64,000 nt of DNA from a phage, in sequence record PZ445430.1. One strand, given 5' to 3'. Below are positions 7,450 through 64,000 of the stretch, one piece after another (positions within the stretch are counted from its first letter, which is position 1; every line of letters begins with the position of its first letter). The position numbers and the translations under genes were made by a program. A model generated the notes under the pieces. The model was not told the DNA's origin, made no database searches, and saw only the letters and a program-made list of their open reading frames with translations.

Positions 7450-8859
7450 ATGTCTTTACAACTATTACGTAATACTCGAATCTTCGTGTCTACGGTTAAG
7501 ACTGGTCACGATAAGACCAACACGCAAGAGATTCTAGTTCAAGATGATATTTCTTGGGGTCAGGACAGTAACTCAACCGATATTACTGTTAACGAAGCTG
7601 GTCCGCGTCCAACTCGTGGTTCAAAACGTTTCAACGACTCCCTGAACGCAGCTGAGTGGAGTTTCTCTACTTACATCCTGCCTTACTTAGATAAGACTAC
7701 TAGTAAGCAGATCGTTCCAGACTATATGTTATGGCATGCGCTATCTAGTGGTAAGCGTATCAATCTTGATGGTGATACTGGGGCTCATACCAACGAAACT
7801 AACTTCATGGTTAACTTTAAAGATAATGCATACCACGAACTGGATATGCTGCACATCTATATCCTTACGGATAAAGCATGGAGCTATATTGATTCCTGTC
7901 AGATCAACCAAGCTGAAGTAAACGTTGATATCGAAGATATCGGTCGTGTAACTTGGTCAGGTAATGGTAACCAGCTGATCCCATTGGATTCACAACCATT
8001 TGATCCTGATATTGTAGGTATCGATGATGAAACTTACATGACTATCCAAAGTTCTTACATCAAGAACAAACTGACTATTCTGAAGATTAAGGATATGGAT
8101 AGTGGTAAGGCATACGATATTCCGATCACTGGTGGTAGCTTCACAATCAACAACAACATCACCTATCTGACTCCGAATATTATGTCTCGTGTAAACATTC
8201 CAATCGGTTCCTTTACTGGTGCATTCGAACTAACCGGTTCTCTTACTGCTTACCTGAACGATAAAGCTCTGGGTTCTATGGATTTGTATAAAGATCTGAT
8301 TAAGACCCTTAAAGTAGTTAACCGTTTCGAAATTGCCCTGGTTCTTGGTGGTGAATACGATGATGAGCGTCCTGCAGCTGTTCTAGTTGCTAAGCAAGCC
8401 CACGTCAACATCCCAACTATCGAGACTGACGATGTACTTGGTACTTCTGTTGAGTTCAAGGCTATTCCTACTGATCTGGATACTGGTGATGAAGGTTACC
8501 TTGGCTTCTCTAACAAGTATACCAAAACTACTATTGCTAACCTGATTGCTACAGGTGATGGTGGTCAAGCTGCTCCGGTCCCAGTTACTGGCATTACTGT
8601 TAAGTCTGCTGGGGATGCAACTACAGTTGAAAATAGTGCAACTCTCCAGATGACAGTAGATGTTCTGCCTGCAGAAGCTACTAATAAGGCTGTAACTTGG
8701 TCTATCTCTTCTGGTACAGCAGCTACTATTGATGCTGATTCCGGTCTACTAACTGCTGATGTTACCAAAGTAGGTGCAGTTACTGTTAAAGCTGTAGCTA
8801 TAGACGGTTCTGGTGTAGAAGGTACTAAGAGCATTACAGTTACTGCTTCTGGTGGCTAA
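7450..8859 (+). CDS. tail tube protein with C-terminal Big_2 Ig-like domain (T5 pb6-like)
   Basis: 469 aa; C-terminal Ig-like segment (ITVKSAGDATTVENSATLQMTVDVLPAEATNKAVTWSISSG); AGGAG RBS. Confidence 0.85.
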   Translation: MSLQLLRNTRIFVSTVKTGHDKTNTQEILVQDDISWGQDSNSTDITVNEAGPRPTRGSKRFNDSLNAAEWSFSTYILPYLDKTTSKQIVPDYMLWHALSSGKRINLDGDTGAHTNETNFMVNFKDNAYHELDMLHIYILTDKAWSYIDSCQINQAEVNVDIEDIGRVTWSGNGNQLIPLDSQPFDPDIVGIDDETYMTIQSSYIKNKLTILKIKDMDSGKAYDIPITGGSFTINNNITYLTPNIMSRVNIPIGSFTGAFELTGSLTAYLNDKALGSMDLYKDLIKTLKVVNRFEIALVLGGEYDDERPAAVLVAKQAHVNIPTIETDDVLGTSVEFKAIPTDLDTGDEGYLGFSNKYTKTTIANLIATGDGGQAAPVPVTGITVKSAGDATTVENSATLQMTVDVLPAEATNKAVTWSISSGTAATIDADSGLLTADVTKVGAVTVKAVAIDGSGVEGTKSITVTASGG

Positions 8860-8863
8860 TTAA

Positions 8864-9763
8864 ATGTATTACTCTCTAATGCGAGAGTCAAAAATTATAG
8901 TTGAGTATGATGGCAGAGCGTATCACTTTGACGCTCTGTCAAATTATGATATTAATACCTCCTACGAGGAATTTAAAACTCTTCGTAGGACTATCCATCG
9001 TAGAACCAACTATGCTGACTCTATTATTAATGCACAAACTCCATCTTCAATATCGCTGGCTATAAATTTTAGTAATACCCTTACTGAAGCTAACTTCTTT
9101 GAATGGATGGGCTTTGATAGAGAGGGTAACACATTCTTACTACCACTTTATAGTACAAATATTGAGCCAACAATGTTTAATATATACATAGTTAATAAAG
9201 ATAATAACTGTGTATACTTCGAGAATTGCTACGTATCTAATGTAGATTTTTCTCTAGATAAAAGTGTCCCTATCCTAAACGTAGGGATTGAATCCGGTAA
9301 ATTCTCTGAGGTGTCTACTTTTACTCCTGCTGGTTCTATTGTTCAGGGTGAAGTTATATCATATAGTCCTCCTAGAGTATCTACCAACAGTAATGTTTTA
9401 CCAGCTCTTTTATCTGCTTCTATGTCCTTCCAGCAACAATGTTCTTGGAGAGAAGATAAAAGCGTATTTGACATAAACAAAATATATAATAATAAGAGAG
9501 CTTATGTTAATGAAATGAATGCTTCGGCAACAATTGCATTTTACTATACCAAGCGATTTGCTGGTGATACGTTTTATAATATTGAACCCGAAACTGACAT
9601 CCCATTAACCATCCGAAATGAACATATTTCTATTGATTTTCCTTCAGCACGTATAACAAAACGCCTACAATTCTCGGATATATACAGAGTTGAATGGGAT
9701 GTAATCCCTACTGCAGACTCTGATCCGGTAAGAATCGACTTCTTTGGAGAAATAAAGAAATGA
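8864..9763 (+). CDS. tail protein (T5 p140-like)
   Basis: 299-aa ORF between tail tube and tape measure genes. Confidence 0.5.
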   Translation: MYYSLMRESKIIVEYDGRAYHFDALSNYDINTSYEEFKTLRRTIHRRTNYADSIINAQTPSSISLAINFSNTLTEANFFEWMGFDREGNTFLLPLYSTNIEPTMFNIYIVNKDNNCVYFENCYVSNVDFSLDKSVPILNVGIESGKFSEVSTFTPAGSIVQGEVISYSPPRVSTNSNVLPALLSASMSFQQQCSWREDKSVFDINKIYNNKRAYVNEMNASATIAFYYTKRFAGDTFYNIEPETDIPLTIRNEHISIDFPSARITKRLQFSDIYRVEWDVIPTADSDPVRIDFFGEIKK

Positions 9764-10164
9764 TCAATTTAAAAGATATTACCCTTGAAACTCGTACTAT
9801 TGAGCTGGCTTACCCAGGTATGCCTAACTTCAAGCTGCAACTAAACTACATGTCTCGTGCTGCATCTAAGCGTGTTATCTCTTCCGCTAAGCGTGATGAG
9901 TGGGTTAACGGTACTATGATTCAAGTTCAGGACGATGATAAGTTTATTGAAGCTTTCGTTGACACTGCAATTGCTGGCTGGACTGGCTTGACGATTGGAG
10001 ATGTTGAGAAGCTGATGCTTATCGAAACTGAAGCTGATCCTACTACTGAAGTTCCATTTAGTCGCGATAACGCTATCATGCTTATGCAGAACTCTGCTGC
10101 GTTTGATTCTTGGATCAACCAGACAGTGTTCCACTTAGACACTTTTCGTAGCTCAAAAGCGTAA
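9760..10164 (+). CDS. putative tail assembly chaperone
   Basis: 134-aa acidic ORF upstream of tape measure gene; function from position only. Confidence 0.4.
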   Translation: MINLKDITLETRTIELAYPGMPNFKLQLNYMSRAASKRVISSAKRDEWVNGTMIQVQDDDKFIEAFVDTAIAGWTGLTIGDVEKLMLIETEADPTTEVPFSRDNAIMLMQNSAAFDSWINQTVFHLDTFRSSKA

Positions 10165-10225
10165 GCAGTTACTAGATGCTGTTGCCGATTTTGCAGATAA
10201 ATGTATTAAATCCTCAGCATCTAAA

Positions 10226-46790: not shown

Positions 46791-47330
46791 TTACACCTTA
46801 AGTTTCTGAAGAGCCTTACACATTTCAAGATCTGGACTAAACTCCAGCATATAGCTGATAGCATTTAAATCTTGAAGGTTTATTCCAGTCCTGCCATTTA
46901 CAATAACAGTAGGGAATTGGTACATCATAGCACCAGCATCATCTAGGACACACCAATGCTTGAGCTTATATTTTTCGACGAAACGTAAAACAGAATTACC
47001 CCGAGATAAACCACCTCCAGTAAAATCTGTTGTACCAAGGAAACGATCGATCAAACCGAGCCCGGTCATAATCTGAACGTTCTCCATCTCATTTCGTACA
47101 GAAAACCATGAAGATACCCCAACAATCATTATTGGGGATGGCTTAAGAAAGTTCTGAAAAGCCTGGAGTAATGGCTTGTAAACCCAATCACCACCAAAGA
47201 ATAGCTTCTCACTATCTGGAGCATGATGGTGAGAGATGCTCGAATTGAGCACCCCATCAATATCCAGGAAAATCACAGGAGTATTACTTATTTCCACCAG
47301 TAGCATCCCACGTCCAGACTTTAACTTCAT
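46791..47330 (-). CDS. HAD-like hydrolase/phosphatase (putative)
   Basis: 179 aa; N-terminal VIFLDIDGVLN matches HAD motif I. Confidence 0.45.
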   Translation of the reverse strand: MKLKSGRGMLLVEISNTPVIFLDIDGVLNSSISHHHAPDSEKLFFGGDWVYKPLLQAFQNFLKPSPIMIVGVSSWFSVRNEMENVQIMTGLGLIDRFLGTTDFTGGGLSRGNSVLRFVEKYKLKHWCVLDDAGAMMYQFPTVIVNGRTGINLQDLNAISYMLEFSPDLEMCKALQKLKV

Positions 47331-47469: not shown

Positions 47470-47632
47470 ATTCTCCCTCCTTAATAAGGAACTCTTTCCA
47501 TTCTGCTGTATCCTCATAGATAACGCAGAAATCATCACTCTTCCATGAGAAGTCATCAGTAGCAAATTCGAAACGGTAGCACCAACTACCATCTGGCCAT
47601 ACTAAAAGATCACACATGCTTTTCTGGGACAT
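47450..47632 (-). CDS. small acidic protein
   Basis: 60-aa ORF (MSQKSMCDLLVWPDGSW...) preceded by GGAGGG; start overlaps 3' end of Sir2-like gene. Confidence 0.4.
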   Translation of the reverse strand: MSQKSMCDLLVWPDGSWCYRFEFATDDFSWKSDDFCVIYEDTAEWKEFLIKEGEYGEEDF

Positions 47633-48461
47633 AAATATTTCCCTCCATAAAAGCTTCAACTTGATCAATAAAGTGTTTATTACCAAAAACTTCGGCAGCT
47701 CCAGCACGCCATACAGTAACACCACGTTTCTCATACTCAAGCTGTTCGTCATAACGAACTTGTGGGTTAACAACCATCATCTTAGTTCCACGACATACAG
47801 CAGGAAATAATTCCCAGTTGAAGTTGATAACTTGGTTACTACAACCCACCACAATAACCATGTCATTGCTAGTAAGAGTATCAAACAGGTTGATTTGACC
47901 CATGTACCACGGAGCTGTCTCACCAAAGAACACCACGTTTGGTTTTACCCATTCGTAATCTTCAGGGGCAATCGCAGTATACCCAACATCTTCGATGATT
48001 TGATTGCGACCCTGATGATAGATCACCTCTTTCAAGTACCCGTGAGCGTGAATGATTTCATCACGAGGGATACCAGCACGTTCCAGAAGGTCATCAACGT
48101 TAGTAGTGAAGTTCTTCACGCTACCCGCATCATAACGCTGGAACCATTCTGCAATTCGCAGATGGGCAATGTTAGGCTCAACAGTCTGTAGTTCCTGACG
48201 ACGCATGTTGTAGAACTCATGAGTCTTGAGATACAGATCGTTACCATCTTCATCAATGCCAGGGAAACGAGCGCTGAAGTAGTTAGGATCATCTTCACCA
48301 CAGAAGCGACGGAAGCCAGCTTCAAAGTTAGGCAAGCTACATACTTCCTCTAGATCGTACTCATCCCACAAAGATTTTCCACTAGCAGTATCAGTACGGA
48401 AAGCACGAACACCACTATCTACACTCAAACCTGCACCACTAACAACAATTAGTCTACGCAT
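47610..48461 (-). CDS. Sir2-like NAD-dependent protein (sirtuin fold, no obvious Zn ribbon)
   Basis: 283 aa; GAGLSVDSGVRAFR, TTNVDDL, HAHG, VVGCSNQV match sirtuin motifs; no CxxC pairs seen. Confidence 0.7.
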   Translation of the reverse strand: MRRLIVVSGAGLSVDSGVRAFRTDTASGKSLWDEYDLEEVCSLPNFEAGFRRFCGEDDPNYFSARFPGIDEDGNDLYLKTHEFYNMRRQELQTVEPNIAHLRIAEWFQRYDAGSVKNFTTNVDDLLERAGIPRDEIIHAHGYLKEVIYHQGRNQIIEDVGYTAIAPEDYEWVKPNVVFFGETAPWYMGQINLFDTLTSNDMVIVVGCSNQVINFNWELFPAVCRGTKMMVVNPQVRYDEQLEYEKRGVTVWRAGAAEVFGNKHFIDQVEAFMEGNIYVPEKHV

Positions 48462-57992: not shown

Positions 57993-58571
57993 ATGACAGC
58001 CATAGTAGCATTTAAATATAAAGATAAAGTATACTTAGCTGGTGATCGTATGGGTTCTAATGGCTATACGAAACTGCTGGTTAAAAATCCGAAAGTATTC
58101 AAAATCTCTGATGATTTGTACTTCGGATACACTAGTTCCTTCTACATGGGACAATTACTAGAGCATAGCTTTACTGTACCACCACGTTTAGCAGATATTT
58201 CCGATGATAAATATTTATATACGGAAATAGTACCTAAATTACGTGATATGTTTAACCAGAAAGATTTTGGCGAAAAGAAAAATGAAAAATATGCTGAACC
58301 TAATCTGGGACAATTTATTATGCTCTACAAAGGAAGAATCTTTATTTTCCAATCTAATGCTTCTATTCTAGAAGTTGAATATGCCGGTGTAGGCTGTGGA
58401 GGAGAAGATGTACTTTCCAGTATTCGTACAGGTTTAGCTATTGCGGATTGTCGAGCCACAGATTTAGATGTAGATGATATATTTGAAATCATTGATCTGG
58501 CTTTTACGCATTGTGCAGATTATATGTGTGGTGTATCTTCTCAACATGATGTATTAGTAATTGGAGAATAA
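57993..58571 (+). CDS. HslV/proteasome-like Ntn-hydrolase (putative peptidase)
   Basis: 192 aa; Thr at position 2 (MTAIVAFKYKDKVYLAGD) and later YAGVGCGGEDVLSSIRTGLAIAD resemble HslV. Confidence 0.45.
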   Translation: MTAIVAFKYKDKVYLAGDRMGSNGYTKLLVKNPKVFKISDDLYFGYTSSFYMGQLLEHSFTVPPRLADISDDKYLYTEIVPKLRDMFNQKDFGEKKNEKYAEPNLGQFIMLYKGRIFIFQSNASILEVEYAGVGCGGEDVLSSIRTGLAIADCRATDLDVDDIFEIIDLAFTHCADYMCGVSSQHDVLVIGE

Positions 58572-60834: not shown

Positions 60835-61536
60835 ATGAAATTCAAGCCCTTTGGTATGCTGGACATTGAATCTCTAGGTACTCCAGGAAATTGCGGTACT
60901 ACTCATATTGCAATGCCTTCTTTCGCTTTTGTAGCGATGCACGGAATTGATAAAGATCCTGATCTGGTATTCGTTACTCTAGACGTTCAAGATCAGCTTA
61001 ATGCGGGTGCTAAGGTAACTGCCTCTACTATTGCATTCTGGATGGATCAAGCTAAAAACAGTCCATCTGCGCTCCATATTATGGAGGCTCTAAATGGTCG
61101 TAATCCTAAGCTGATTGCCTTCCGTGATGGTAAGCATCACTGCACTAATGACGTAGGCTCTAATTATGCTGCCTTCTCTATGGCTCAGAACATTATGGAA
61201 TTGTCTCTAGGAGATAATGCTCTGTATTACGGCAATGGCCCAGAGTTTGATATGACAATCTACTCTGCAAATACGTTCCATGCCGGAACCCATGAAGAAA
61301 TAGTTCCGTGGAAATTCTGGAACTTAGGTAACGTTCGATCTTTCCGTAATCAGTGGATGCAAGCTGGTTATAGCTATAAAGATCTAGAAGCCGAAGGTGC
61401 TAGCTGGGCAAAAGCTAAAATGGAAAAGATGGACACCATTCGTTATGGAATCTATCCTGTGAAGCATGATCCAGCATTCGATGCTTTAGTTGAAAGTTAT
61501 TGTGTAGCCGTCATGATCGAAAAAATCAAAATTTGA
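60835..61536 (+). CDS. DEDDh-type 3'-5' exonuclease (putative)
   Basis: 233 aa; Exo I-like MLDIESLGT, Exo II-like GPEFDMTIY, Exo III-like HDPAFDALVESY. Confidence 0.55.
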   Translation: MKFKPFGMLDIESLGTPGNCGTTHIAMPSFAFVAMHGIDKDPDLVFVTLDVQDQLNAGAKVTASTIAFWMDQAKNSPSALHIMEALNGRNPKLIAFRDGKHHCTNDVGSNYAAFSMAQNIMELSLGDNALYYGNGPEFDMTIYSANTFHAGTHEEIVPWKFWNLGNVRSFRNQWMQAGYSYKDLEAEGASWAKAKMEKMDTIRYGIYPVKHDPAFDALVESYCVAVMIEKIKI

Positions 61537-61575
61537 TTTGCTTTCAGCTCCAAAATTCTGTATAATATATTCATA
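61520..61575 (+). promoter_or_regulatory. T5-type early promoter
   Basis: TTGCTT, 17-nt spacer, TATAAT, conserved CATAAATTTGAGAG box. Confidence 0.65.
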
Positions 61576-61606
61576 AATTTGAGAGAACAACAAAAGGAAA
61601 ATAATT

Positions 61607-61789
61607 ATGCCAGTATCTAAAAACGTCCGTAAAAATGGTAAAGTAGCAAAACGTAACCTGGGTCTGCGTCGTATGGCTGAGTGTCAGTCCGGCATCCAGA
61701 AAATCTTTAATGTACTGAATCGCGCCAACCCGAATATTGATAACAGTTCTGATACTGTTCTGCGCACTCTGCTGGCAATCGGTCTGTAA
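61607..61789 (+). CDS. small basic protein
   Basis: 60 aa, Lys/Arg-rich N-terminus. Confidence 0.5.
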   Translation: MPVSKNVRKNGKVAKRNLGLRRMAECQSGIQKIFNVLNRANPNIDNSSDTVLRTLLAIGL

Positions 61790-61843
61790 TAGGCCGTTTT
61801 TAAAACAAATTCAAATCTCAAACTTCATATAAGGAAGCAAATA

Positions 61844-62482
61844 ATGACTACTCGTATCTCTAAAACTCGTGCTCTGGCAACTATCAAGTCTCTGGAAGCT
61901 AAAATCCGTAAAGCTACTGAACAACAGCTTTTGATCGCTGTTGGTGAAGGTAAGGACAAGAACCAAGTTGTCGTTGGCGCTGCAATCGAAGTAGATGCTC
62001 TGTCTACTCGTATTAAGACTGATTTCCAGTCTCTGCTGGATATGATGTCCCAGCGTGATCAGCTGAAAGCTGCGCTGATCAAGAGCAATGCTGAAACTGT
62101 TGTAGAGATCGGTTCTCGCTCTATGACTGTTGCGGAAGCAATCGAAGCTAAGCGTTCTATGGAACTCAAAGCTCAGTTGCTGGCTAACATGCGTAAGCAG
62201 TTCCATGCTGCTACTGTTAAGTTTAACACTCAGAAGGCTCAGTTTGACGCCAAGTATGAGCGTCTGCAGGATACCATGGCTACCCGCGACAAGAAGACTT
62301 CCGAGGATGAAGTTAAGATGCAGCTTAACCTGCTGGAACTCAAGAACACTCCGTTCCTGATCGATCCGCTGGAGCTAGAAAAGCTGATCAAGCAACACGA
62401 CGAAGAATACCAGGACTTTGCAACTAACGTTGACTTTGTTCTGTCTGAGTCCAACGCCTCTACTTTCATCGAAGTAGAGTAA
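61844..62482 (+). CDS. hypothetical protein
   Basis: 212 aa, helical; strongly biased codon usage; AAGGAAG RBS. Confidence 0.6.
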   Translation: MTTRISKTRALATIKSLEAKIRKATEQQLLIAVGEGKDKNQVVVGAAIEVDALSTRIKTDFQSLLDMMSQRDQLKAALIKSNAETVVEIGSRSMTVAEAIEAKRSMELKAQLLANMRKQFHAATVKFNTQKAQFDAKYERLQDTMATRDKKTSEDEVKMQLNLLELKNTPFLIDPLELEKLIKQHDEEYQDFATNVDFVLSESNASTFIEVE

Positions 62483-62844
62483 TAATTTAAAAGACTAGTA
62501 AATCGGTAGACGAAAGCCCAAGCATCTTACCTCGCAGCAGCGGTTGAAATACGAGGTTAAATAAGACCGCTGACCATACTATAAAGTATAATCTATTGGA
62601 GATTATGTTTATTACACCAGCCTCTTAAGCTGAACTGTAAAAACGGTCGTTGGTAGTACCAACACAACTTCAAAGATCAACGCTCAAGTATGAAAGCTGA
62701 AAAGTTAAAAGAACTCAAACTTCTAACCTTCTAAAGCTAAAAGATGCAAAGTATTCGTTGATGATTCAAACCCTAGATCAAAGGTACATGGCTCATAAGA
62801 TATGGCCTGTGGCGCCTCTAGGCTGTTTATCGGTTCACTAGTCT

Positions 62845-62900
62845 CTCAATTTAAAAATGTATTTGCTAATTAGTTTAGTTTTCTATATAATATATTTTTA
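62845..62900 (+). promoter_or_regulatory. T5-type early promoter
   Basis: TTGCTA, 17-nt spacer, TATAAT, conserved AAATTGATGAG box. Confidence 0.65.
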
Positions 62901-62921
62901 AATTGATGAGACGAGGCTATT

Positions 62922-63239
62922 ATGATTTTTCATATTCTGATTGATGATGTTCGTGACCTGCATGGGATGGATATTATCATTCGAACCCCCGAAGCCGCTA
63001 TTGAGTTTCTGAATACAACCGATACCACCGGACATTTCGTTTATATGGATAATGATCTGGCTGTAGATGGTATGGAAGGTTATCAAATTCTTCGTTTACT
63101 CCTAGAATTTGGACAGAGACCCAAGAAAGTGGTACTAGTAACCTCGAACCCTGTAGCTAAGCAGAACATGCGTAATGATTTGCTTGACGAAGGGTATCAA
63201 GAAAGCCCTAATCGTATTGAGTACGATTGGCCGGAGTAA
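62922..63239 (+). CDS. small flavodoxin-fold protein, possibly receiver (REC)-like
   Basis: 105 aa; ILIDDV, YMDNDLAVDGMEGYQIL, VVLVTSNP resemble the acidic pocket, phospho-acceptor Asp and Thr/Ser of receiver domains; assignment tentative. Confidence 0.35.
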   Translation: MIFHILIDDVRDLHGMDIIIRTPEAAIEFLNTTDTTGHFVYMDNDLAVDGMEGYQILRLLLEFGQRPKKVVLVTSNPVAKQNMRNDLLDEGYQESPNRIEYDWPE

Positions 63240-63244
63240 ATAAA

Positions 63245-63694
63245 ATGAAGGCAGCTTTGCTTCTAATAGCTGCCCTAACCTATAGCTTCAATAGTCATGC
63301 TACCTACGACTCAAAGCAGATTGATTGCATTGCAAAAAATATCTACTTCGAAGCACGAGGTGAGGGCACAAAGGGAATGATTGCAGTTGCACAGGTTACT
63401 AAAAACCGTGTAAACTCCGGTAAATTCCCTGATTCTTACTGTAAAGTAGTATATCAGTCTAACCAATTCAGCTGGACAGCTAAAAAACCTAGGGTTGATA
63501 AAACAGATGAGACTTGGCAAGTTGCTAAGAACTTAGCTAGAGTGATATACTACGTTGATTTACCACAAGATCCAACACAGGGGGCGTTATACTTCCATAG
63601 TGGTAAAGATAAACCGTACTGGACAAAGAAGTTTAAGAAAACAACGAAGATTCAAGGCCATACGTTCTACAAGCCTGTGGTTAAGAAAACTTAA
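63245..63694 (+). CDS. secreted cell-wall hydrolase, SleB/CwlJ (Hydrolase_2) family
   Basis: N-terminal signal peptide (MKAALLLIAALTYSFNSHA); IAKNIYFEARGE...VTKNRV...FPDSYCKVVYQSNQFSW matches SleB-like core; start at ATG 63245 after GGAG. Confidence 0.65.
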   Translation: MKAALLLIAALTYSFNSHATYDSKQIDCIAKNIYFEARGEGTKGMIAVAQVTKNRVNSGKFPDSYCKVVYQSNQFSWTAKKPRVDKTDETWQVAKNLARVIYYVDLPQDPTQGALYFHSGKDKPYWTKKFKKTTKIQGHTFYKPVVKKT

Positions 63695-63735
63695 AAATTC
63701 GATTGCTTAAAGACTTAAATTTCTGTATAATACTT
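63690..63735 (+). promoter_or_regulatory. T5-type early promoter
   Basis: TTGCTT, 17-nt spacer, TATAAT. Confidence 0.65.
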
Positions 63736-63762
63736 TCATAAATTAATGAGAGGAAGCGAAAT

Positions 63763-63933
63763 ATGAAATCAGTTGTAATTATTGGTGTTAATACCCGTGG
63801 TATCCGTACTACGAAAACAGTTAAAACTACTAACGTTGCTGAAATTACTACAAACCCTAAGAAGTTTGATTTCGCCAAAGTCTCGGCAGTTATGACAGAA
63901 CAATCTTTTAACCAAGTACTGGGAATTAAATAA
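63763..63933 (+). CDS. hypothetical small protein (56 aa)
   Basis: ORF below track cutoff (MKSVVIIGVNTRGIRTTK...), GAGAGGAAG RBS and promoter upstream. Confidence 0.45.
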   Translation: MKSVVIIGVNTRGIRTTKTVKTTNVAEITTNPKKFDFAKVSAVMTEQSFNQVLGIK

Positions 63934-64000
63934 TGGAAGAAAATATTCTAAATGTTTTGCGTAGGGCTTTGCAGGAATCTAAGATTGATGGCTCTGATAA
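63933..64000 (+). CDS. hypothetical protein, 5' end only (runs off window)
   Basis: ATG overlapping preceding stop (TAATG); open to window end. Confidence 0.3.
   Translation, partial: MEENILNVLRRALQESKIDGSD

What the first reader, a model, noticed from the sequence alone, without database searches (positions are those of the whole stretch)
62922..63239. Possible orphan receiver-domain-like protein in an early operon
The 105-aa ORF has the residue pattern of a CheY-like receiver (acidic pair after strand 1, Asp at the end of a hydrophobic strand in YMDNDL, Thr/Ser in VVLVTSN) but no output domain. If genuine, it could titrate a host phosphorelay. Other flavodoxin-like folds cannot be excluded by eye.
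Basis: inference. Interest (0 to 1): 0.5.

Follow-up and report, generated by a model that had tools for sequence, protein, structure and literature searches.

The report
Phage cREC receiver-like protein, known family
The 105-residue gene is real and has a stripped-down CheY-like receiver fold, but it belongs to the already described, biochemically untested phage "cREC" family, which is predicted to process cyclic phosphates in RNA-repair/NAD chemistry rather than to interfere with host two-component signalling.

Summary
The window is the T5-like Escherichia phage SuperGirl (Bas29). ORF 62922-63239 (+) is bas29_0075, annotated "hypothetical protein".

**The gene is real.**
- It has an ATG start, a GAGG Shine-Dalgarno sequence and a TTGCTA-17-TATAAT promoter, which corresponds to T5 early promoter T5P23.
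- dN/dS is about 0.09.
- It is intact in about 450 phage records.

**The receiver reading holds.**
- It matches Pfam PF20274 cREC_REC at 58.6 bits against a cutoff of 27.
- D8/D9, D43 and T74 align with CheY D12/D13, D57 and T87, and are invariant or T/S-only in 186 non-redundant homologues.

**It is not a canonical receiver.**
- Helices α1 and α5 and the active-site Lys are absent.
- It has no PF00072 match.
- R11, R21, D45 (D+2) and N76 (T+2) are additionally invariant.

**Context.**
- Relatives sit in tight operons with a P-loop kinase, a T4 Rnl1-type RNA ligase, a calcineurin-like phosphoesterase or a Macro-domain gene.
- The same window carries a Sir2 gene and a HAD "Swiss-army-knife" RNA-repair module.

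**Verdict.** The phosphorelay-titration idea is unsupported. The best explanation is a cyclic-phosphate/phosphoester-processing enzyme, which is inferred and untested. The family and 90%-identical orthologues are already labelled this way, so novelty and interest are low.

The parts
62863..62891 (+). Sigma70-like promoter TTGCTA-17 nt-TATAAT that drives the two-gene unit. It is the counterpart of T5 'putative early promoter T5P23'.
   Evidence: Consensus scan, 10 of 12 matches. The same sequence is annotated as T5P23 directly upstream of the T5 orthologue. Function is inferred, not shown.
62913..62916 (+). Shine-Dalgarno GAGG, 5 nt upstream of the ATG.
   Evidence: Read directly from the sequence. 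It is conserved in T5.
62922..63239 (+). cREC-family protein gene (bas29_0075), 105 aa. It has a receiver-like fold without α1, α5 or the catalytic Lys.
62943..62954 (+). Codons for D8-D9-V10-R11: the acidic pair after strand β1 (equivalent to CheY D12/D13) plus the family-specific Arg.
   Evidence: hhalign register. In 186 non-redundant members, D8 is kept in 185, D9 in 185 and R11 in 177, with K in 7 more (positions printed there are one lower than the true residue number).
62982..62984 (+). Codon for R21, a family-specific invariant Arg at the end of strand β2.
   Evidence: R in 183 and K in 3 of 186 members.
63048..63056 (+). Codons for D43-N44-D45. D43 is equivalent to the CheY D57 phospho-acceptor position. 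D45 occupies the D+2 position.
   Evidence: D43 is kept in 186/186 and D45 in 184/186. The alignment to CheY FVISD is in register.
63141..63149 (+). Codons for T74-S75-N76. T74 is equivalent to CheY T87. N76 occupies the T+2 position.
   Evidence: Position 74 is T in 142 and S in 44 of 186. N76 is kept in 184/186.
63245..63694 (+). Co-transcribed downstream gene: a SleB-like cell-wall hydrolase with a signal-peptide-like N-terminus. Its GGAG lies inside the last codons of the cREC gene. It is an operon neighbour with no demonstrated functional link.
   Evidence: Pfam Hydrolase_2 at E=3.5e-26. Annotation. Spacing read from the sequence.
47610..48461 (-). Sir2-family protein (bas29_0053). It is a candidate partner in the predicted NAD-dependent RNA-end repair pathway. 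This link is inferred.
   Evidence: PF02146 at E=8.4e-22. The Sir2+HAD module of SP15-type phages is described in PMC9503650.
46791..47297 (-). HAD 'Swiss-army-knife' RNA-repair phosphatase (bas29_0050). It is a candidate partner. This link is inferred.
   Evidence: PF18143 HAD_SAK_2 at E=6.8e-18.

Best explanation
bas29_0075 is a member of the cREC family ('cyclic-phosphate processing Receiver', Pfam PF20274). It is a minimal receiver-fold protein, expressed early from its own promoter.

It keeps the phosphoryl/Mg2+-binding pocket of response regulators: D8, D9, D43 and T74. It has lost the parts used for signalling: helix α1, helix α5 and the Lys. It has gained invariant R11, R21, D45 (D+2) and N76 (T+2).

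The most likely function is enzymatic rather than signalling: binding and hydrolysing a phosphoester. The published prediction is opening of 2',3'-cyclic phosphate ends of cleaved (t)RNA, or of ADP-ribose 1''-2'' cyclic phosphate. In T5-like phages it would act in trans with the Sir2 and HAD 'Swiss-army-knife' proteins encoded 15 kb away, protecting the tRNA pool from host anticodon nucleases.

A plausible chemistry follows.
- D43 acts as nucleophile, or the Asp cluster acts as the metal site.
- D45 and N76 position the attacking or leaving group.
- T74, R11 and R21 hold the phosphate.

What is shown: gene reality, family membership, fold, and conserved pocket. What is inferred: catalysis, substrate, and pathway partners.
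For: **Family.** PF20274 at 58.6 bits against a cutoff of 27. Every homologue found carries the same Pfam domain. Orthologues 87-90% identical are named 'Cyclic-phosphate processing Receiver domain-containing protein' by UniRef and NCBI.

**Pocket.** D8, D9, R11, R21, D43, D45, G53, T/S74 and N76 are kept in 177-186 of 186 non-redundant members. Their register to CheY comes from hhalign at E=2e-5.

**Context in relatives.**
- L016 has cREC, an AAA_33 kinase, an RNA_lig_T4_1 ligase and a Metallophos_2 phosphoesterase with overlapping or abutting gene boundaries.
- L003 has T4 Rnl1 one small gene upstream and a Macro-domain gene 2 kb downstream.
- In two Paenibacillus genomes a Macro-domain gene ends 18 nt before cREC.
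- Calcineurin-like phosphoesterases recur near cREC.

**Same genome.** It carries SIR2 and HAD_SAK_2, a NadR-like enzyme, an annotated PnuC transporter and about 25 tRNA genes.

**Literature.**
- The family definition and the cyclic-phosphate prediction are in PMC7824862 and PMC9503650.
- D+2 and T+2 contact attacking and leaving groups in receivers (PMC12632262).
- T5 counters tRNA-cleaving defence (PMC11464382).
Against: - No member of the family has been tested biochemically. Only two papers mention it, and both are computational.
- In T5-like phages the gene is not adjacent to any RNA-repair or NAD gene. Its operon partner is a secreted cell-wall hydrolase.
- No RNA ligase is detectable in this phage by tblastn.
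- Many relatives sit among unannotated small genes.
- The recurrence of RNA-repair neighbours was not tested against a background rate.
- Loss of the Lys could equally mean loss of catalysis.
Confidence: 0.45

Rival explanations
1. Phosphorelay decoy or phosphate sink. The protein would be phosphorylated on D43 by host histidine kinases, HPt proteins or acetyl phosphate, and so drain or block host two-component signalling.
For: Four of the five receiver active-site residues are present and invariant: DD, D and T/S. The fold is receiver-like. Single-domain receivers that act as phosphate sinks exist (general knowledge).
Against: - The Lys is absent, and so are α1 (the kinase/HPt docking helix) and α5.
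- There is no PF00072 match at E<=10.
- By the definition in PMC12632262 it is a pseudo-receiver.
- The family occurs in phages of very different hosts and in a Parcubacteria-group bacterium, with no kinase nearby in any sampled locus.
- The literature reports the family never occurs with histidine kinases.
- The extra invariant residues R11, R21, D45 and N76 are not explained by this idea.
Confidence: 0.07
2. Non-catalytic binder or 'sponge'. The conserved acidic/Arg pocket would sequester a phosphate-bearing small molecule, for example an ADPR-derived or cyclic-nucleotide immune signal, as the small phage proteins Tad1, Tad2 and Acb2 do.
For: It is a small, stand-alone, early-expressed protein that is widespread in phages. 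The pocket is conserved but lacks the Lys. In some relatives known anti-defence families lie within a few kb: Tad3 and Acb3.
Against: The conserved residues are the catalytic set of a phosphotransfer fold, not a typical sponge interface. Operon partners in relatives are enzymes of RNA-end healing and sealing. No oligomer or ligand evidence was obtainable here.
Confidence: 0.15
3. A phosphoesterase or phosphotransferase with a different substrate, for example nucleotide, (p)ppGpp or acyl-phosphate metabolism, unrelated to cyclic phosphates or RNA repair.
For: The pocket evidence is the same as for the best explanation. Thymidylate synthase is the most frequent recognisable neighbour in the phage/metagenome sample, alongside dCMP deaminase, DHFR and NAD kinase, so the gene sits in nucleotide-metabolism early regions in many phages. 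In this window it follows RNR, DHFR, ThyA and RNase H.
Against: The tightest, translationally coupled linkages are to an RNA ligase with kinase and to a Macro domain. Nucleotide-metabolism neighbours are generic features of phage early regions.
Confidence: 0.15
4. A pseudo-receiver acting purely through protein-protein interaction, regulating a phage or host protein without any phosphoryl chemistry.
For: It lacks one of the five catalytic residues and two helices. Pseudo-receivers with non-phosphorylation roles are common (PMC12632262).
Against: Near-absolute conservation of four Asp, T/S, N and two Arg around one pocket across very divergent members (30-40% identity) points to chemistry or ligand binding, not a surface interface.
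Confidence: 0.1

Closest known systems
cREC family (Pfam PF20274, 'Cyclic-phosphate processing Receiver domain'; Iyer et al. 2021 Viruses 13:63 and 2022 Viruses 14:1977)
   Same: It scores well above the family threshold and has the same length. It has the same signature, hhhDDxR...R...D(H/N)DLG...G...V(T/S)xNPV, and the same receiver-like predicted fold. It is a stand-alone phage protein with no histidine kinase. The same genome carries Sir2 and HAD_SAK_2 genes.
   Different: In T5-like phages the gene is not linked to RNA ligase, Nudix, Macro or Sir2 genes. Instead it forms a two-gene early unit with a SleB-like cell-wall hydrolase. The 2022 paper lists SP15-type (T5-like) phages under a Sir2+HAD neighbourhood without mentioning their unlinked cREC gene, although SP15 has one (H58). 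The window protein has A47 where 168 of 186 members have G.
Canonical single-domain response-regulator receivers (CheY, Spo0F; Pfam PF00072)
   Different: It has no α1, no α5 and no conserved Lys after β5. It has no PF00072 match, only 11-21% identity and TM about 0.55, and no partner kinase. It also has invariant D at D+2, N at T+2 and two Arg that canonical receivers lack.
2H phosphoesterases (LigT / CPDase-type cyclic phosphodiesterases)
   Same: They have the same predicted biochemical job, resolving 2',3'- or 1''-2''-cyclic phosphates. They occur in the same kinds of phage RNA-repair neighbourhoods (PMC9503650).
   Different: The fold is unrelated. The defining two HxT/S motifs are absent: the protein's only His residues are H4, H14 and H38, and none is in an HxT/S motif (read from the sequence). 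It is at most an analogue, not a member.
HAD-superfamily phosphatases (DxD motif, aspartyl-phosphate intermediate)
   Same: It has an Asp followed by a second Asp two residues later (D43-x-D45) at the C-terminus of a central strand, next to a Thr/Ser-bearing strand. This resembles the HAD nucleophile plus Asp+2 acid/base arrangement. The comparison comes from established knowledge, and the mechanism is inferred.

Membership tests
cREC (PF20274) | Score above the Pfam gathering threshold over the whole domain | tested here: met
   58.6 bits against a cutoff of 27, E=1e-15, residues 4-87 on model positions 2-86 of 88.
cREC (PF20274) | Receiver-like Rossmannoid fold | tested here: met
cREC (PF20274) | Conserved catalytic aspartates shared with Rec domains | tested here: met
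   D8 185/186, D9 185/186, D43 186/186 and D45 184/186. All four are present in the window protein.
cREC (PF20274) | Never associated with histidine kinases; found with RNA-repair or NAD/ADPr-processing genes | tested here: inconclusive
   No kinase is annotated in the phage. SIR2 and HAD_SAK_2 are in the same genome but 15 kb away. The immediate neighbour is a cell-wall hydrolase. Tight linkage to RNA ligase with kinase, or to a Macro domain, is seen only in relatives.
cREC (PF20274) | Hydrolysis of 2',3'- or 1''-2''-cyclic phosphates | not testable with these tools
   This is a published prediction only. No experimental paper was found.
Canonical two-component receiver (PF00072) | (βα)5 architecture with five helices | tested here: not met
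   DSSP on the model gives five strands but only three helices (23-32, 53-62, 77-89). A loop replaces α1 and the chain ends after β5. hhalign opens an 8-residue gap at α1.
Canonical two-component receiver (PF00072) | Active-site residues DD, D and T/S | tested here: met
   D8/D9, D43 and T74 are in register with CheY D12/D13, D57 and T87 and are invariant.
Canonical two-component receiver (PF00072) | Active-site Lys at the end of β5 | tested here: not met
   The alignment to receivers ends just before K109. The window protein ends ...EYDWPE. No conserved K/R column follows β5 in the family.
Canonical two-component receiver (PF00072) | Match to the Response_reg profile | tested here: not met
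   No PF00072 hit at E<=10. PDB receivers appear only at E 0.3-1.2 with the family profile.
Canonical two-component receiver (PF00072) | Cognate histidine kinase or HPt; phosphorylation of the Asp | not testable with these tools
   No kinase is annotated in the phage. Phosphotransfer needs biochemistry.
2H phosphoesterase | Two HxT/S motifs in a duplicated fold | tested here: not met
   There is no HxT/S motif in the 105-aa sequence. The fold is receiver-like.
HAD phosphatase | HAD Rossmannoid fold with DxD after β1 and motifs II-IV | tested here: not met

The most novel reading that the evidence does not exclude
The receiver fold has been turned into a stand-alone hydrolase. The Asp at D+2 and the Asn at T+2 would be built-in versions of the residues that CheZ-, CheX- or Spo0E-type phosphatases supply in trans. 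T5-like phages would use it as an anti-defence enzyme that destroys cyclic-phosphate-bearing alarm molecules rather than merely repairing RNA. Candidate targets are tRNA halves ending in 2',3'>p that switch on RtcR/CARF-type sensors, cyclic-phosphate-terminated oligoadenylates, and ADPR-derived cyclic signals.
Probability: 0.12. Interest if true: 0.7.

Novelty: already known. Interest (0 to 1): 0.3.

Why it matters
As flagged, this matters little. The family was defined in 2021, it has a Pfam model, and UniRef and NCBI already give 87-90% identical orthologues the cREC name.

Three things remain of value.
- The local annotation can be corrected. The gene is "hypothetical protein" in SuperGirl and in every phage record listed in the searches, and it is under-called as a 55-aa ORF079 in T5.
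- T5, a classic and tractable phage, carries an intact unlinked cREC gene together with Sir2 and HAD-SAK genes but no detectable RNA ligase. That makes it a convenient system for the first biochemical and genetic test of the cREC prediction.
- If catalysis is confirmed, it would show a receiver fold working as a phosphoesterase outside His-Asp signalling.

Tried and rejected
**Searches with no useful hit**
- NCBIfam and PADLOC gave no hits.
- phmmer against PDB sequences gave only noise.
- The family profile against PDB gave strong-looking TAL-effector hits (E down to 4e-16). These are a repeat artefact: 12-13 weak 3-5-bit matches of 'P..VV.(I/V)(T/A)SN..G' are summed. I rejected them.
- Single-sequence hhalign to CheY was in register but weak (probability 5.7%). 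I replaced it with a six-receiver profile.
- Rfam found no RNA family in 61500-64000. ARAGORN found no tRNA in the upstream gap.
- tblastn for Rnl1-type ligase, kinase, Metallophos and Macro homologues found nothing in the SuperGirl genome.
- A literature search for experimental work on cREC or for anti-defence roles found nothing.

- The search for related loci with the broad alignment A2 failed because it had no conserved 7-10-column stretch. I used subset A3 instead.
- The afdb50 fold library was unavailable.

**Neighbourhood analysis**
- BLASTP clustering of neighbours across 16 lineages found only thymidylate synthase and the SleB-like hydrolase recurring outside T5-like synteny. This method was too insensitive, so I supplemented it with Pfam scans.
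- jackhmmer could not link the two RNA ligases to each other.

**Alternative folds considered and rejected**

Full report
**1. What the window is**

A 4-kb stretch around the finding is 100% identical to Escherichia phage SuperGirl (Bas29, MZ501105.1). This is a T5-like phage (Demerecviridae, Epseptimavirus). Window coordinate equals record coordinate minus 480. The ORF is bas29_0075, annotated 'hypothetical protein'.

**2. The observation**

- The ORF 62922..63239 (+) exists, starts with ATG and encodes 105 aa.
- GAGG lies 5 nt upstream of the ATG.
- A TTGCTA-17-TATAAT promoter-like site lies at 62863-62891.
- In phage T5 the same sequence is annotated as 'putative early promoter T5P23' immediately before the orthologue, so 'early operon' is fair.
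- The next gene, a SleB-like cell-wall hydrolase (Pfam Hydrolase_2, E=3.5e-26), starts 5 nt after the stop codon. Its GGAG lies inside the last cREC codons.

The gene is under strong purifying selection. Among 27 T5-like sequences there are 18 distinct alleles, with mean dN 0.034, mean dS 0.377 and a ratio of 0.09. tblastn finds the protein in 494 phage records, full-length in 449. By first word of the organism name these are 269 Salmonella, 130 Escherichia and 50 Vibrio phages.

**3. Family**

- The protein matches Pfam PF20274, cREC_REC ('Cyclic-phosphate processing Receiver domain'), at E=1e-15 and 58.6 bits against a cutoff of 27.
- It matches PHROG 1479, of unknown function, at E=1.7e-30.
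- It does not match Response_reg (PF00072) even at E<=10.
- Almost all homologues found carry PF20274; the two exceptions are short fragments. Orthologues 87-90% identical are already named 'Cyclic-phosphate processing Receiver domain-containing protein' by UniRef and NCBI.
- An exhaustive HMMER search of 1.84 billion representative proteins found 406 relatives at E<=1e-3. Nearly all are stand-alone proteins of 95-125 aa.

**4. Fold**

AlphaFold2 with a 72-sequence alignment gave pLDDT 93.5 and pTM 0.86. The elements are β 4-7, β 18-20, α 23-32, β 39-42, α 53-62, β 69-72, α 77-89 and β 100-102.

- Foldseek agrees, with TM about 0.55.
- In the viral structure library the best matches are other phage cREC proteins, followed by CheY-like proteins.

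It is a truncated receiver, though. A 10-residue loop replaces α1, and the chain ends after β5, so there is no α5.

**5. Active site**

I ran a profile-profile alignment of the family against six classical receivers: CheY, Spo0F, PhoB, NtrC, OmpR and NarL. The alignment gives probability 77% and E=2e-5 over 86 columns.

| cREC residue | CheY equivalent |
|---|---|
| D8/D9 | D12/D13 |
| D43 | D57 |
| G53 | G65 |
| T74 | T87 |

The alignment has an 8-residue gap where α1 would be, and it ends just before K109.

Conservation among 186 members made non-redundant at 70% identity (printed positions there are one lower than the true residue number):

| Residue | Count out of 186 |
|---|---|
| D8 | 185 |
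| D9 | 185 |
| R11 | 177 (plus 7 K) |
| R21 | 183 (plus 3 K) |
| D43 | 186 |
| D45 | 184 |
| G53 | 186 |
| Position 74 | T 142, S 44 |
| N76 | 184 |

No conserved Lys follows β5. By the definition of Bourret et al. 2025 (PMC12632262), a receiver that lacks any one of DD, D, T or K is a pseudo-receiver. The same paper notes that positions D+2 and T+2 contact attacking and leaving groups. In cREC these positions are an invariant Asp and an invariant Asn.

**6. Context in relatives**

| Locus | Arrangement |
|---|---|
| L016 (IMG/VR phage) | cREC 8001-8306, AAA_33 P-loop kinase 8299-8748, RNA_lig_T4_1 ligase 8732-9619, Metallophos_2 phosphoesterase 9621-10193. Boundaries overlap or abut, the layout of a heal-and-seal RNA-repair operon |
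| L003/L004 | T4 Rnl1 ligase one small gene upstream; Macro-domain gene 2 kb downstream |
| L065/L067 (two Paenibacillus genomes) | Macro-domain gene ends 18 nt before cREC |

- Calcineurin-like phosphoesterases and SprT-like proteins recur within a few kb in several unrelated lineages.
- Two loci in the bacterial-genome sample have PRA-PH (phosphoribosyl-ATP pyrophosphohydrolase family) neighbours.
- Other loci show only small unannotated genes or housekeeping genes (a Parcubacteria-group genome).
- No histidine kinase was seen next to any cREC gene.

This independently reproduces the gene-neighbourhood picture on which Iyer et al. based the cREC prediction (PMC7824862, PMC9503650). I did not test it against a background rate.

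**7. Context in this phage**

The gene is not next to RNA-repair genes. The same window does hold two relevant genes: a SIR2-family gene (47610-48461, minus strand, E=8.4e-22) and a HAD_SAK_2 'Swiss-army-knife RNA repair' phosphatase (46791-47297, minus strand, E=6.8e-18). This is the Sir2+HAD module that Iyer et al. 2022 described for SP15-type, T5-like phages.

The genome also encodes:
- a calcineurin-like phosphoesterase;
- an annotated 'putative polynucleotide kinase' with no Pfam hit;
- a NadR-like NMN adenylyltransferase/kinase and an annotated PnuC transporter;
- an NAD-dependent DNA ligase;
- about 25 tRNA genes starting 2.5 kb downstream.

No Rnl1-type RNA ligase is detectable by tblastn.

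**8. Mechanism**

- Shown: a real, conserved early gene, cREC membership, a receiver-like fold, and an intact and elaborated Asp pocket.
- Inferred: the pocket binds Mg2+ and a phosphoryl group and catalyses phosphoester hydrolysis.
- Following the published prediction, the substrate would be 2',3'-cyclic phosphate RNA ends, or ADP-ribose 1''-2'' cyclic phosphate produced by Sir2/KptA-like 2'-phosphate removal.
- The D43-x-D45 spacing resembles the nucleophile plus Asp+2 arrangement of HAD phosphatases. R11 and R21 may stand in for the missing Lys.
- T5-like phages are known to face tRNA-cleaving defences and to counter them with their own tRNAs (PMC11464382). That makes an RNA-end-processing role plausible but unproven.

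I put this explanation at 0.45. The rivals are listed with their confidences in the Rival explanations section, and the evidence does not exclude any of them:
- a phosphorelay decoy;
- a non-catalytic ligand sponge;
- a phosphoesterase with a different substrate;
- a protein-binding pseudo-receiver.

**9. Comparison with known families, and novelty**

It is a member of cREC, with four of the five defining features met or partly met and the catalytic activity untestable here. It is not a canonical receiver: three defining features were tested and not met. It is at most an analogue of 2H and HAD enzymes. Literature searches found only the two computational papers on cREC. The family is therefore described and catalogued but has not been characterised experimentally. 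The finding is an already-known kind of gene that the local annotation missed.

**10. Side observations**

- T5 ORF079 (55 aa) is an under-call of the intact 105-aa gene.
- In SHSML-45-like phages the cREC gene is replaced, exactly at its borders, by an in-frame fusion of an HNH_3 domain and a divergent cREC of 273 aa. The flanks remain 84-88% identical.
- The 440-bp gap upstream of the gene contains two blocks more conserved than the flanking genes. They remain unexplained.

Noticed in passing
window 62483-62921 (both strands): The 440-bp non-coding gap upstream of the gene has two blocks, about 62504-62623 and 62744-62803, that are 98-100% identical across 26 distinct T5-like sequences. The flanking genes are only 85-95% identical. 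In SHSML-45-like phages the whole gap is 93.7% identical to the window, against 87.6% over the aligned block that contains it. The region folds better than shuffled sequence on both strands (z -3.1 on +, -4.3 on -). It contains a hairpin with one compensatory CG/AU pair, a 7-codon mini-ORF with a good SD, and a terminator-like hairpin (62648-62664) that reads only on the minus strand. There is no Rfam or tRNA match. It could be an sRNA or a regulatory element; this is unresolved.
   Followed up: partly
L009 3501-3818 (phage T5 AY587007.1, 42666-42983, minus strand): T5 'ORF079' is annotated as 55 aa from an internal ATG. The full 105-aa cREC ORF, with ATG and SD, is intact immediately after promoter T5P23.
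   Followed up: yes
L049 and L050 7482-8303 (SHSML-45-like T5-like phages): An in-frame 273-aa fusion of an HNH_3 homing-endonuclease-like domain and a divergent cREC (51% identical) replaces the cREC gene exactly at its borders. The flanks stay 84-88% identical, and there is no start codon at the domain junction. This suggests homing-endonuclease-driven allele replacement.
   Followed up: partly
window 60835-61536 (+): The gene annotated 'putative metallopeptidase' scores instead as an Rv2179c-like 3'-5' exoribonuclease (PF16473, 31.9 bits against a cutoff of 27).
   Followed up: no
window 57993-58571 (+): A hypothetical protein of 192 aa matches the Proteasome subunit family (PF00227, E=1.2e-9, 38.5 bits against a cutoff of 22.4).
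   Followed up: no
window 46791-47297 (-) and 47610-48461 (-): A HAD_SAK_2 'Swiss-army-knife RNA repair' phosphatase and a SIR2-family protein, separated only by two small ORFs. Two DUF7415 proteins lie next to them. Only the Sir2 gene is named in the record's annotation.
   Followed up: partly
L056 6306-6659 and L018 8311-8865: In two unrelated metagenomic phage lineages, the gene directly downstream of cREC, overlapping its end, encodes a protein with a Ribosomal_L12 C-terminal-domain hit.
   Followed up: no
L001 15934-16377 (window 63934 onward, runs off the window end): The gene annotated 'recombination-related exonuclease' (named 'tRNA amidotransferase' in other records) has only a sub-threshold YqeY/GatB-like hit (23.3 bits against a cutoff of 27). 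The exonuclease annotation looks unsupported.
   Followed up: no
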